The position numbers are program-made. 64,000 bases of DNA from Escherichia coli O157:H7 (GTDB lineage: Bacteria; Pseudomonadota; Gammaproteobacteria; Enterobacterales; Enterobacteriaceae): assembly GCF_013167455.1 (NCBI RefSeq), contig NZ_CP038328.1; one strand, 5' to 3'. This document shows, in pieces, positions 42,117 through 45,100 of this stretch. The first letter of the stretch is position 1. The number at the start of each line of letters is the position of its first letter.

Positions 42117-45100
42117 GTTTAAAAGACATCGGCGTCAGCGGATGTCTGGCTGAAAGGCCTGAAGAATTTGGCGCGTTAACAAAGCGGTTATGTAGCGGAT
42201 TGCAAATCCGTCTAGTCCGGTTCGACTCCGGAACGCGCCTCCACTTTCTTCCCGAGCCCGGATGGTGGAATCGGTAGACACAAGGGATTTAAAATCCCTC
42301 GGCGTTCGCGCTGTGCGGGTTCAAGTCCCGCTCCGGGTACCATGGGAAAGCTAAGAATAAAATCAAAGCAATAAGCAGTGTCGTGAAACCACCTTCGGGT
42401 GGTTTTTTCGTATTTGTATTTTGTGCAATGGCGGTAGAGTGGCGATGGTGTGGCGATATGCAGAAACAATGGTAGTGCACGTGCTGTTTAAACTCTAAGG
42501 ATGAAGCAGAATTCTTCTGCAGCTCCTCCGTATTTCGCATAGTGAACCAGGACCTCTGTTAAACAAAAATTTTTCTGGGATTTTTCCACTCGACTTTATT
42601 TTTCCTCCTGCAATCCACCAACAGGTACCTGCGCTAATCTATCTTTTTAATCTGACAACATCTTGGGAAAAGGCAAATTCGTCAGATTTACTGTTTTTCT
42701 GCTGCCTCGAATGCCGATGTCTGAAGCACTGATAAGAGTTCTATCTCTTTGATATAGATCTTTTTTTTGATGAATTGCACGACATATTATCGTTATGACA
42801 CCTTCTTGTTAAAGGTATTGTGCTCCTCATCTCGATTTTATGATGTGGGCTATGATTGGTTAGTAATTGAGTGTATCGGTATGCGATGTGGTTTATTAAT
42901 GGCAATCTGCCTTTGTTTAGTATCTTTTAGTGGATATGCAGCAACAGGAAAGTCTGATGCTCAGATCAAAAAAGAAATAATTAAAGAATCCATTGAATCT
43001 TATCCAGGCAATTGTGCGTGTCCTTATAATCATGCAAGGAATGGTAGTAGATGTGGTGGACGCAGTGCATATAGCCGTAATGGAGGGTATGACGTGGTAT
43101 GTTATGAGGGTGATGTTACCGATGAAATGATCCGGCAATGGAAGCAGGAGAATGCTGAGTAATCTCTTTTAACAGGTTTGTTGTGCGAGCATTATGTGCC
43201 GTTAACGGTTCACATCCCGAAAATCTGCGCTTCTGGCTGAAAGCCTGTCCGGTGGTCCTTCGTGAGCGATTTCATCAACAATGTAAGTGTAGATTCAATT
43301 GGTCAACGCAACAGTTATGTGAAAACATGGGGTTGCGGAGGTTTGGAACTATGGAAGAACGGAACAGGCTTCAGTGAAATAGCGAATATCCTGGGTTCAA
43401 AACCCGGAACGATCTTCACTATGTTAAGGGATACTGGCGGCATAAAACCCCATGAGCGTAAGCGGGCTGTAGCTCACCTGACACTGTCTGAGCGCGAGGA
43501 GATACGAGCTGGTTTGTCAGCCAAAATGAGCATTCGTGCGATAGCTACTGCGCTGAATCGCAGTCCTTCGACGATCTCACGTGAAGTTCAGCGTAATCGG
43601 GGCAGACGCTATTACAAAGCTGTTGATGCTAATAACCGAGCCAACAGAATGGCGAAAAGGCCAAAACCGTGCTTACTGGATCAAAATTTACCATTGCGAA
43701 AGCTTGTTCTGGAAAAGCTGGAGATGAAATGGTCTCCAGAGCAAATATCAGGATGGTTAAGGCGAACAAAACCACGTCAAAAAACGCTGCGAATATCACC
43801 TGAGACAATTTATAAAACGCTGTACTTTCGTAGCCGTGAAGCGCTACACCACCTGAATATACAGCATCTGCGACGGTCGCATAGCCTTCGCCATGGCAGG
43901 CGTCATACCCGCAAAGGCGAAAGAGGTACGATTAACATAGTGAACGGAACACCAATTCACGAACGTTCCCGAAATATCGATAACAGACGCTCTCTAGGGC
44001 ATTGGGAGGGCGATTTAGTCTCAGGTACAAAAAACTCTCATATAGCCACACTTGTAGACCGAAAATCACGTTATACGATCATCCTCAGACTCAGGGGCAA
44101 AGATTCTGTCTCAGTAAATCAGGCTCTTACCGACAAATTCCTGAGTTTACCGTCAGAACTCAGAAAATCACTGACATGGGACAGAGGAATGGAACTGGCC
44201 AGACATCTAGAATTTACTGTCAGCACCGGCGTTAAAGTTTACTTCTGCGATCCTCAGAGTCCTTGGCAGCGGGGAACAAATGAGAACACAAATGGGCTAA
44301 TTCGGCAGTACTTTCCTAAAAAGACATGTCTTGCCCAATATACTCAACATGAACTAGATGAACCGCCCCGGGTTTCCTGGAGAGTGTTTTATCTGTGAAC
44401 TCAGGCTGCCAGATCATCGTTTCCGATGGAAGCATAATAAGCTTTTTCTGCTTCTGCCGGAGGAGTATGGCCCAGCCTTCCCAGCAATCGTCGATTGTTA
44501 TACCAGTCCACCCACGTTAGTGTGGCCAGTTCCACTTCTGCACGGTTTTTCCAGCTCTTACGGTGTATTACCTCCGCTTTGTAAAGACCATTGATGCTCT
44601 CAGCCATCGCGTTGTCATACGAGTCGCCTGTACTCCCTGTTGATGCCAGTAATCCGGCTTCTTTTAGTCGCTCCGTATAGGCCAGTGACACATACTGAGA
44701 GCCTTTATCGCTGTGATGGATGGTGCCAGACGGACGACGGGCCCACAACGCCTGCTCCAGCGCATCCAGCACGAATGTCGTTTCCATAGACGATGAGACC
44801 CGCCACCCCACGATGTATCCGGCAAACACATCAATGATAAACGCCACATAGACGAAGCCCTGCCATGTGCTGACGTAAGTAAAATCAGCCACCCACAGCT
44901 GGTCAGGTCGTTCTGCCACGAACTGACGGTTTACGCGGTCGCCTGCGGCAACGGCTTTCCGGCTGATGGTCGTACGGACCTTTTTACCCCGGAGAACACC
45001 GGCAAGTCCCATAACCGCCATGAGACGTGCCACTGTACATCTGGCCACCCTGATTCCTTCCCGTAACAACTGACGCCAGACTTTACGCACACCGTACACC

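What the first reader, a model, noticed from the sequence alone, without database searches (positions are those of the whole stretch)
43262..44398. IS30 copy with an aberrant transposase N-terminus
The ORF stays open upstream through the left inverted repeat and lacks what I recall as the canonical start (MRRTFTAEEKASVF) before ELWKNGTGF. This suggests a deletion of about 45 bp near the 5' end of the transposase gene, in addition to the 3' truncation by the IS629-like element. The recalled reference sequence is from memory only.
Basis: partly seen in the sequence, partly recalled or inferred. Interest (0 to 1): 0.25.

Follow-up and report, generated by a model that had tools for sequence, protein, structure and literature searches.

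The report
Dead IS30 copy missing its start
This is a decayed copy of the well-known insertion sequence IS30 in an E. coli O157:H7 prophage remnant; a 46-base deletion has removed the start of its transposase gene, which is ordinary gene decay shared by typical O157:H7 strains.

Summary
Window 43288-44358 is IS30. Against K-12 IS30A it lacks a net 46 bp (IS30 nt 55-100) and has T104G beside the junction (window 43341-43345). The loss takes out the ATG, the first 14 codons (MRRTFTAEEKASVF) and the in-frame TGA just upstream, so the frame runs open through the left inverted repeat to GTG 43262.

The rest (E15-D352) is 100% identical to the intact IS30 transposase at the same chromosomal site in the ancestral-type strain 493/89.

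The junction occurs once per genome in 254 of 5,426 complete E. coli genomes. All sampled carriers are O157:H7, and 249 have it at this locus. It is always linked to a 3.3-kb deletion 130 bp to the left.

The "3' truncation by IS629" has two steps. In relatives, IS629 is simply inserted at IS30 nt 1115-1117 and the IS30 tail survives. This window has a further private ~1.03-kb IS629-adjacent deletion that removed the tail.

The element cannot make transposase from its own start and, here, lacks its right end, so it is a fossil. How the deletion arose is unresolved: illegitimate joining, possibly an IS629 excision scar. Interest is low.

The parts
43288..44358 (+). IS30 remnant: IS30 nt 1-54 joined to nt 101/105-1117. 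It lacks 46 bp near the 5' end and nt 1118-1221, including the right inverted repeat.
   Evidence: Alignment to K-12 IS30A, 99.5% identity outside the gap. No other IS30 sequence occurs in the 64-kb window.
43288..43313 (+). IS30 left terminal inverted repeat (26 bp), intact.
   Evidence: Identical to K-12 IS30A nt 1-26. The IR pairing is seen as the 26-nt self-match of nt 1-26 with 1196-1221 in relatives.
43341..43346 (+). Junction of the 46-bp deletion: ...GCGGAGG|TTT|G|GAACTATGG. The Shine-Dalgarno GGAGG (43337-43341) is kept. The ATG, codons 1-13 and the upstream TGA are lost, and codon 14 changes from TTT to TTG.
   Evidence: The junction is present once per genome in 254 of 5,426 complete genomes.
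43262..44398 (+). Chimeric ORF (378 aa): 26 nt of prophage flank, then the left IR and leader read in a shifted frame, then InsI codons 15-352, then 40 nt of IS629. It is not a genuine gene.
   Evidence: In-frame candidate starts are GTG 43262 (outside IS30), GTG 43319 (IS30 nt 32, used by PGAP in relatives) and TTG 43343 (1 nt after the SD).
44359..45668 (-). IS629/IS1203 (IS3 family), 1,310 bp and complete. orfA is 45288-45614 and orfB is 44401-45291.
   Evidence: Pfam HTH_Tnp_1, HTH_21 and rve. RefSeq annotates it as 'IS3-like element IS1203 family transposase, programmed frameshift' in the identical L001 copy. Termini are TGAACCGCCCC...GGGGCGGTTCA.
43213..43287 (-). 75-bp internal fragment of the prophage gpD (late control D / VgrG-like) gene into which IS30 inserted. 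Its left edge (about 43210-43213) is the junction of a 3,322-bp deletion.
   Evidence: 91.6% match to gpD regions of other P2-like prophages. Deletion mapped against PV15-279 and 493/89.
45669..46354 (+). 3' part of the phage tail-sheath gene, fused directly to the IS629 end by a strain-private ~1.03-kb IS629-adjacent deletion.
   Evidence: Pfam Phage_sheath_1 and Phage_sheath_1C. L001 8408-9437 is absent from the window. The junction has no match in 5,426 genomes.
42288..42408 (+). Left copy of the 121-bp direct repeat (3' part of tRNA-Leu(taa) 42256-42342 plus downstream). It is the att-type boundary of the P2-like prophage remnant; the right copy is at 63694-63814.

Best explanation
The feature is a non-functional, decaying copy of IS30 inside a P2-like prophage remnant at the leuZ tRNA of E. 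coli O157:H7.

Shown:
- IS30 first inserted into the prophage gpD gene with its usual 2-bp target duplication (AG). That intact state survives in strain 493/89 and in several non-O157 strains.
- In the ancestor of typical O157:H7, two deletions appeared. One is a 46-bp deletion inside IS30 (nt 55-100, with T104G at the joint). The other is a 3.3-kb deletion 130 bp to its left.
- Afterwards IS629-type elements inserted at different positions of this stretch in different sublineages. In this window the position is IS30 nt 1115-1117.
- In this strain a further ~1.03-kb IS629-adjacent deletion removed the IS30 right end.
- The 46-bp deletion removes the transposase ATG and its first 14 codons.

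Inferred: no transposase is made from the element's own start signals. With the right inverted repeat also gone here, the copy can neither transpose nor be mobilised. It does nothing except mark lineage history.

Inferred, with lower confidence: the deletion arose by illegitimate (microhomology or end-joining type) recombination. It may be a scar of imprecise IS629 excision, rather than clean slippage between the 8-bp repeats TTTTTGAA that flank the region.
For: Deletion and its content:
- Alignment to K-12 IS30A shows the gap and its position.
- The protein downstream of the joint is identical over E15-D352 to the intact same-locus transposase of 493/89.

Genuine and inherited:
- The junction is found exactly once per genome in 254 of 5,426 complete genomes; all 60 sampled are the O157:H7 lineage.
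- 249 genomes have it at this same flank.

Ancestral state:
- 493/89 has a complete 1,221-bp IS30 (383-aa CDS) at the same site with TSD AG.
- PV15-279 and F3113 have the undeleted 5' end.

Linkage with the 3.3-kb deletion: no genome has one deletion without the other.

T104G occurs in no undeleted IS30, so it belongs to the deletion event.

Order of events:
- CDC#03-98 and EC4115 carry the 46-bp-deleted IS30 with an intact 3' end, and have IS629-type insertions elsewhere (window-equivalent 43239-43241, and IS30 nt 241-246).
- L001 shows the IS30 tail beyond IS629 with TSD AGA.

No usable start:
- GTG 43319 has no SD.
- TTG 43343 lies 1 nt after GGAGG.
- The next ATG is codon 40.

Never transposed: there is one junction copy in every carrier genome.

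Background from papers:
- The N-terminal 17-kDa part of IS30 transposase is the IR-binding domain (Stalder 1990 and Nagy 2004, as cited in PMC7780238).
Against: - Loss of function is inferred from sequence only; no expression or transposition data exist.
[quoted passage not shown] A read-through transcript could therefore in principle yield an N-terminally altered protein.
- The origin is not settled. Clean slippage between the 8-bp repeats predicts a 44-bp deletion with six Ts, which is not observed. The IS629-scar reading rests on only two informative bases, which I estimate (not computed) as roughly a 1 in 10-16 coincidence.
- The postulated intermediate was not found among complete genomes.
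Confidence: 0.9

Rival explanations
1. The 46-bp-deleted allele still encodes a working, or regulatory, transposase with a new N-terminus. It would start at GTG 43319 inside the left inverted repeat (as PGAP calls it), at TTG 43343, or at GTG 43262 in the flank.
For: - The frame is open from 43241 and three in-frame NTG codons exist.
- PGAP names a 377-aa product WP_032161728.1 in CDC#03-98 as an intact IS30 family transposase.
- The body E15-D352 has no damaging mutation relative to the intact 493/89 copy.
- HTH_38 and rve domains and the NCBIfam IS30 core are retained.
Against: - Exactly one copy per genome in 254 genomes, at one locus, means no sign of transposition.
- Independent IS629 insertions and deletions are tolerated in it in every sublineage examined.
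- GTG 43319 has no Shine-Dalgarno. It lies within the region (bp 9-35) bound by the transposase N-terminal domain.
- The SD-to-TTG spacing is 1 nt.
- The simple promoter scan found nothing upstream.
- In this window the gene also lacks its last 31 codons and the right IR.
Confidence: 0.04
2. The 46-bp deletion, and the linked 3.3-kb deletion, are scars of imprecise, IEE-promoted excision of IS629 copies that once flanked the retained 129-bp island. They would have left 2-3 terminal IS629 bases (TG at 43344-43345, TCA at 43210-43212). This is a rival only for the origin of the deletion, not for what the element is now.
For: - Both joints carry one 'wrong' base next to the junction. In each case it is the base predicted if IS629 termini (5'-TG...TCA-3') remained. 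GGAGGTT+TG+GAACTATGG reproduces the right joint exactly. AACGGT+TCA+CATCCCG reproduces the left joint exactly, through a 4-nt CGGT microhomology with the IS629 end.
- RM10410 has an IS629 inserted in IS30 at nt 54-56, precisely the left edge of the 46-bp deletion.
- At least 5 different IS629-type insertion positions occur in this 1.3-kb stretch among O157 strains.
- IEE-dependent excision produces adjacent deletions of a few nt to >40 kb and microhomology joints that may intrude into the IS (PMC9943667; bioRxiv 10.1101/2023.06.07.543989).
- Simple slippage between the 8-bp repeats predicts a different product.
Against: - Only two bases are informative. I estimate a chance agreement of about 1/10 to 1/16; this was not computed.
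- The model needs two IS629 insertions and two imprecise excisions.
- No complete genome shows an IS629 abutting either edge of the island at this locus.
- The right joint is not a clean microhomology product; it needs one extra G.
- Presence of iee in this strain was not checked.
Confidence: 0.2
3. The short 5' end is a sequencing or assembly artefact, or the K-12 reference carries an insertion and the short form is the original IS30.
For: None beyond the bare difference between the two sequences.
Against: - The junction is identical in 254 independently assembled complete genomes.
- About 3,500 genomes carry the long form.
- The long form sits at the very same insertion site in 493/89, PV15-279, F3113 and ETEC H10407.
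- The long form supplies the ATG and an N-terminus that the short form lacks.
Confidence: 0.01

Closest known systems
IS30 (IS30 family; E. coli K-12 IS30A, transposase InsI1)
   Same: - 99.5% nucleotide identity over the 1,072 aligned bases.
- Identical 26-bp left inverted repeat.
- Same gene order and the same transposase residues 15-352.
- 2-bp target duplication (AG), seen in relatives that keep both ends.
   Different: - Lacks nt 55-100, which hold the start codon and codons 1-13, and has T104G.
- In this window it also lacks nt 1118-1221 (last 31 codons and the right inverted repeat).
- It is interrupted or abutted by IS629.
The same-locus IS30 of O157:H7/NM strain 493/89 (NZ_CP038412.1 3407040-3408260; CDS WP_001254932.1)
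   Same: - Same insertion site in gpD of the leuZ P2-like prophage.
- Same four SNPs relative to K-12.
- Protein identical over residues 15-352.
   Different: 493/89 has the full 1,221 bp. It has no 46-bp deletion, no 3.3-kb neighbouring deletion and no IS629.
IS629/IS1203-associated small structural polymorphisms and IEE-promoted IS excision or adjacent deletion in O157
   Same: - The IS629 insertion in IS30 has a 3-bp duplication.
- A strain-private deletion starts exactly at the IS629 end.
- Different sublineages have IS629 at different positions of the locus.
   Different: The 46-bp deletion itself is not adjacent to any present IS629 copy. Its link to IS629/IEE is only a hypothesis.

Membership tests
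IS30 (insertion sequence, IS30 family) | High nucleotide identity to the type element (same IS rather than a relative) | tested here: met
   1,072 aligned nt with 5 substitutions versus K-12 IS30A.
IS30 (insertion sequence, IS30 family) | 26-bp terminal inverted repeats at both ends | tested here: not met
   The left IR is intact at 43288-43313. The right IR is absent from the window. It is present in L001, L009, L011 and L012. The copy is therefore a remnant, not a complete element.
IS30 (insertion sequence, IS30 family) | 2-bp target site duplication | tested here: met
   Tested in relatives only. AG flanks both ends in L001 against the empty-site sequence of L006. It is not checkable in the window because the right end is deleted.
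IS30 (insertion sequence, IS30 family) | Single transposase ORF with N-terminal HTH DNA-binding region and a DDE (rve) catalytic core matching the family model | tested here: met
   NCBIfam NF033563 transpos_IS30 scores 257 bits against a cut-off of 80, over model positions 1-254 of 267. Pfam HTH_38 and rve are found.
IS30 (insertion sequence, IS30 family) | Complete transposase gene with its own start codon and C-terminus (autonomous element) | tested here: not met
   The ATG and codons 1-14 are lost. Codons 353-383 are lost in the window.
IS629/IS1203 (IS3 family) | About 1.3-kb element with TG...CA termini, orfA (HTH_Tnp_1) and orfB (rve) in -1 frameshift arrangement, and a 3-bp target duplication | tested here: met
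   1,310 bp at 44359-45668. The identical copy in L001 is annotated with a programmed frameshift and has TSD AGA in IS30. In the window only the left-hand copy of the duplication remains.
IEE-promoted IS excision scar | Deletion joint at a former IS site, microhomology at the joint, and iee present in the genome | tested here: inconclusive
   The joints are compatible with retained IS629 termini and a 4-nt microhomology. No intermediate was found. The iee gene lies outside the window and was not examined.
P2-like prophage remnant at leuZ | Tail sheath, tube, gpE and tape-measure genes, gpD/ogr module, and flanking direct repeats at a tRNA | tested here: met
   Annotations of L001, L009 and L006. 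The 121-bp repeats are at 42288-42408 and 63694-63814 next to tRNA-Leu.

The most novel reading that the evidence does not exclude
The 46-bp deletion and the perfectly linked 3.3-kb deletion could be natural fossil scars of imprecise, IEE-assisted excision of IS629 copies, retaining 2-3 terminal IS bases. If so, this locus would be a recorded example of how IS629 and IEE sculpted the O157:H7 genome at the base of the typical lineage.
Probability: 0.2. Interest if true: 0.3.

Novelty: already known. Interest (0 to 1): 0.1.

Why it matters
It matters very little biologically. It is one more inactivated insertion sequence in a decaying prophage.

Its practical value is as a stable lineage marker. 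The 46-bp junction, together with the 3.3-kb deletion, separates typical O157:H7 (254 complete genomes) from basal or atypical O157 strains (493/89, PV15-279, F3113).

It is also a caution for annotation. Pipelines call a 'complete' 377-aa IS30 transposase from a GTG inside the inverted repeat, and a spurious 64-aa ORF across the flank/IR boundary.

The locus also documents repeated IS629 insertion and adjacent deletion in a 1.3-kb stretch.

Tried and rejected
- **Clean slipped-strand deletion between the 8-bp direct repeats TTTTTGAA (IS30 nt 56-63 and 100-107).** Rejected as the sole mechanism. It predicts a 44-bp loss and GGAGGTTTTTTGAAC, not the observed GGAGGTTTGGAAC.
- **T104G as a pre-existing polymorphism.** No undeleted IS30 in 5,426 genomes has it.
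- **Search for the postulated intermediate (IS629 abutting either edge of the 129-bp island).** None found. The search instead revealed IS629 at other positions, in EC4115 and CDC#03-98.
- **RM10410 hit H35.** It looked like a second deletion variant but is an IS629 insertion at IS30 nt 54-56 at another locus.
- **CEC96047's 10-bp shorter IS30.** This is a different IS629-variant insertion point, or slippage at the ATGAAC repeat. It is not related to the 5' deletion.
- **Simple sigma-70 promoter scan of 43100-43500.** It found nothing, so it neither supports nor excludes the weak native IS30 promoter.
- **Identifying the source strain through the IS629/sheath junction.** No match.
- **Whether typical O157:H7 keeps an intact IS30 elsewhere.** No full-length copy of this allele appeared among the eight 100%-identity records. 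However, 2-3 places per chromosome match the IS30 body and were not resolved.
- **Literature.** The J Bacteriol 2010 IS30 paper (PMC2897661) is not held. No paper describing this specific deletion was found.

Full report
**What is in the window**

The ORF named in the finding (43262-44398, +, 378 aa, GTG start) exists. It carries Pfam HTH_38 and rve domains and the NCBIfam IS30 transposase core (257 bits, cut-off 80).

The DNA from 43288 on begins with the IS30 left inverted repeat TGTAGATTCAATTGGTCAACGCAACA. At 44359 the sequence changes to the terminus of an IS3-family element, TGAACCGCCCCGGG... This element runs to 45668 and is 1,310 bp, with orfA and orfB on the minus strand. RefSeq names the identical copy 'IS3-like element IS1203 family transposase'. 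Directly after it comes the middle of a phage tail-sheath gene.

**Check of the observation**

I fetched IS30A from E. coli K-12 MG1655 (270541-271761, annotated 'insertion sequence:IS30A', insI1 at nt 63-1214) and aligned it with the window.

- Window 43288-44359 corresponds to IS30 nt 1-1118.
- There is a single 46-bp gap at IS30 nt 55-100. Its placement is ambiguous within a T run.
- There are five substitutions. One of them (T104G) sits immediately beside the gap.

The two sequences at the gap are:

- Reference: ...GCGGAGG TTTTTTGAATGAGACGAACATTTACAGCAGAGGAAAAAGCCTCTG TTTTTGAACTATGG...
- Window: ...GCGGAGG TTTGGAACTATGG...

The missing piece holds the ATG (nt 63-65) and codons 1-13, and T104G changes codon 14.

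The deletion also removes the TGA that directly precedes the ATG in intact IS30, and shifts the frame by one. That is why the frame now stays open through the inverted repeat, back to a TGA at 43238-43240.

**Is it real, and how widespread is it?**

A 52-bp probe across the junction finds a full-length, 100% match exactly once per genome in 254 of 5,426 complete E. coli genomes. All 60 sampled carriers are O157:H7-lineage strains, including EDL933, EC4115, ATCC 43894 and 86-24.

A probe that adds 138 bp of left flank recovers 249 genomes. It is therefore one locus, vertically inherited, and not an assembly artefact.

The long form is present in about 3,500 genomes. No undeleted IS30 carries G at nt 104, so the substitution belongs to the deletion event.

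**The ancestral state at the same site**

A chimeric probe (this window's flank plus an undeleted IS30 5' end) finds 15 genomes.

- In 493/89 (sorbitol-fermenting O157, an ancestral-type strain) the locus has a complete 1,221-bp IS30 with a 383-aa CDS.
- That copy shares the window's four other SNPs.
- Its protein is 100% identical to the window's over residues 15-352.
- PV15-279 and F3113 also keep the undeleted 5' end.
- Several non-O157 strains (for example ETEC H10407) have IS30 at the same site of a related prophage.

Comparison with an uninterrupted relative (strain 165, L006) and with FDAARGOS_293 (L001) shows that IS30 inserted into the prophage gpD gene with the 2-bp duplication AG that is usual for IS30.

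**Neighbouring events**

1. *A linked 3.3-kb deletion.* Typical O157:H7, including the window, lacks 3,322 bp just left of IS30: hok/gef, ogr, a yecA-like gene and the 3' part of gpD. The joint is at about 43210-43213. Chimeric probes for 'one deletion without the other' found no such genome in either direction. The two deletions are therefore perfectly linked and flank a retained 129-bp island.
2. *IS629 at IS30 nt 1115-1117.* In L001 this is a simple insertion with TSD AGA, and IS30 nt 1118-1221, including the right inverted repeat, follows it.
3. *IS629-type elements at other positions in other sublineages:*
   - IS30 nt 241-246 in EC4115;
   - about nt 1107 in CEC96047;
   - inside the 129-bp island in CDC#03-98;
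   - nt 743 in PV15-279 and F3113.

   In EC4115 and CDC#03-98 the 46-bp-deleted IS30 otherwise has an intact 3' end. The 5' deletion therefore predates the IS629 insertions.
4. *A private deletion in this window.* About 1.03 kb to the right of IS629 (L001 8408-9437) is missing. This covers the IS30 tail, the gpD 5' remnant and about 166 sheath codons. A probe across this junction has no match in any of the 5,426 genomes, so it is a strain-private IS629-adjacent deletion.

**What it does now**

The native start is gone. The in-frame alternatives are:

- GTG 43262, which lies outside IS30;
- GTG 43319 (IS30 nt 32), which has no Shine-Dalgarno and lies within bp 9-35, the region bound by the transposase N-terminal domain according to Stalder et al. 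1990 as cited in PMC7780238;
- TTG 43343, only 1 nt after GGAGG. From general knowledge of E. coli initiation, this is too close for efficient initiation;
- the next ATG, at codon 40.

The N-terminal region of IS30 transposase is its DNA-binding part (Stalder 1990 and Nagy 2004, cited). From my own recollection of Nagy et al. 2004, the first helix-turn-helix lies in roughly the first 40 residues.

The deleted allele occurs once per genome everywhere, so it has never spread. In this window it also lacks 31 C-terminal codons and the right inverted repeat.

I conclude that it is an inert fossil (inference from sequence; confidence about 0.9). PGAP nevertheless names the 377-aa ORF from GTG nt 32 in CDC#03-98 an intact IS30 family transposase. 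I regard this as an annotation artefact, but it keeps a small rival alive.

**How the deletion arose**

The region is flanked by 8-bp direct repeats TTTTTGAA (nt 56-63 and 100-107). Clean slippage between them would delete 44 bp and leave six Ts, which is not what is seen.

Both linked joints carry one unexpected base next to the junction: T104G on the right, and an A>T three bases from the left joint. Both are exactly reproduced if terminal bases of IS629 (5'-TG...TCA-3') were left behind:

- GGAGGTT + TG + GAACTATGG on the right;
- AACGGT + TCA + CATCCCG on the left, the latter through a 4-nt CGGT microhomology with the IS629 end.

Three further points bear on this reading:

- Strain RM10410 carries an IS629 in IS30 at nt 54-56, exactly the left edge of the 46-bp deletion, though at another locus.
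- The stretch is evidently a repeated IS629 target.

Against it:

- Only two bases are informative. I estimate the coincidence at about 1 in 10-16; this was not computed.
- Two insertions and two imprecise excisions are needed.
- No complete genome preserves an intermediate.

I rate this origin at about 0.2. The default is unspecified illegitimate recombination or end-joining.

**Comparison with the known, and verdict**

The element is IS30 by sequence, left inverted repeat, target duplication (in relatives) and transposase domains. It fails the criteria of a complete, autonomous copy: no start codon and, here, no right end.

The locus is present and annotated as an incomplete IS30 in hundreds of public genomes. 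I found no paper that describes the 46-bp deletion itself, but it is ordinary IS decay. One paper notes that IS30 is the commonest IS in 493/89 and LSU61 but not in typical O157:H7 (PMC10758439). That fits IS30 having gone quiet in the typical lineage.

Novelty: already known kind and already annotated. Interest: about 0.1.

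Noticed in passing
window 45668|45669 (compare L001 8408-9437): A strain-private IS629-adjacent deletion of ~1.03 kb. It removes the IS30 3' end (nt 1118-1221, right IR), the gpD 5' remnant and about 166 codons of the tail-sheath gene. The junction has no match in 5,426 complete E. coli genomes.
   Followed up: yes
window ~43210-43213 (compare L008 1164-4485): A 3,322-bp deletion of hok/gef, ogr, a yecA-like gene and the 3' part of gpD. It lies 130 bp left of the 46-bp IS30 deletion and is perfectly linked with it in all complete genomes. The joint reads AACGGT-TCA-CATCCCG, with one base that fits neither parent.
   Followed up: yes
window 43213-44358 and loci L001, L005, L008, L011, L012: IS629-type elements occupy at least five different positions of this 1.3-kb stretch in different O157 strains: the island at 43239-43241, and IS30 nt 241-246, 743, ~1107 and 1115-1117. 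It is a local hot spot for IS3-family insertion.
   Followed up: partly
window 52047-53103 (+): A second IS629-like copy, complete at its left end and cut after 1,057 bp. It is 95% identical to the copy at 44359-45668, and 99% identical to the variant found at the IS30 locus in EC4115, CEC96047 and CDC#03-98.
   Followed up: no
window 42288-42408 and 63694-63814: 121-bp direct repeats (99.2% identical). The left one covers the 3' part of tRNA-Leu(taa) (42256-42342). They bound the ~21.5-kb P2-like prophage remnant that holds the IS30 copy.
   Followed up: partly
window 43183-43377 (+): A 64-aa ORF running from prophage flank across the IS30 left IR into the deleted leader. RefSeq annotates it as a hypothetical protein (WP_115801851.1). 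It is almost certainly spurious.
   Followed up: no
L004 (RM10410) 1473-3034: An IS629 (99% identical to the window's) inserted in an otherwise intact IS30 at nt 54-56 with TSD GTT. The insertion lies between the Shine-Dalgarno and the ATG and coincides with the left edge of the O157 46-bp deletion.
   Followed up: partly
L007 (PV15-279) 2437-2794: O157:H7 carries another IS30 stub (nt 1-358, undeleted 5' end) cut by ISEc8 and annotated as a 'helix-turn-helix domain-containing protein'. Typical O157:H7 chromosomes show 2-3 places matching the IS30 body. Whether any is intact was not resolved.
   Followed up: partly
L005 (CEC96047) ~4087-4130, window 44349-44358: In CEC96047 the IS3-family element starts 10 bp earlier in IS30, at the first of two ATGAAC repeats, and is the 95%-variant. 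It is either an independent insertion or IS replacement plus slippage.
   Followed up: no
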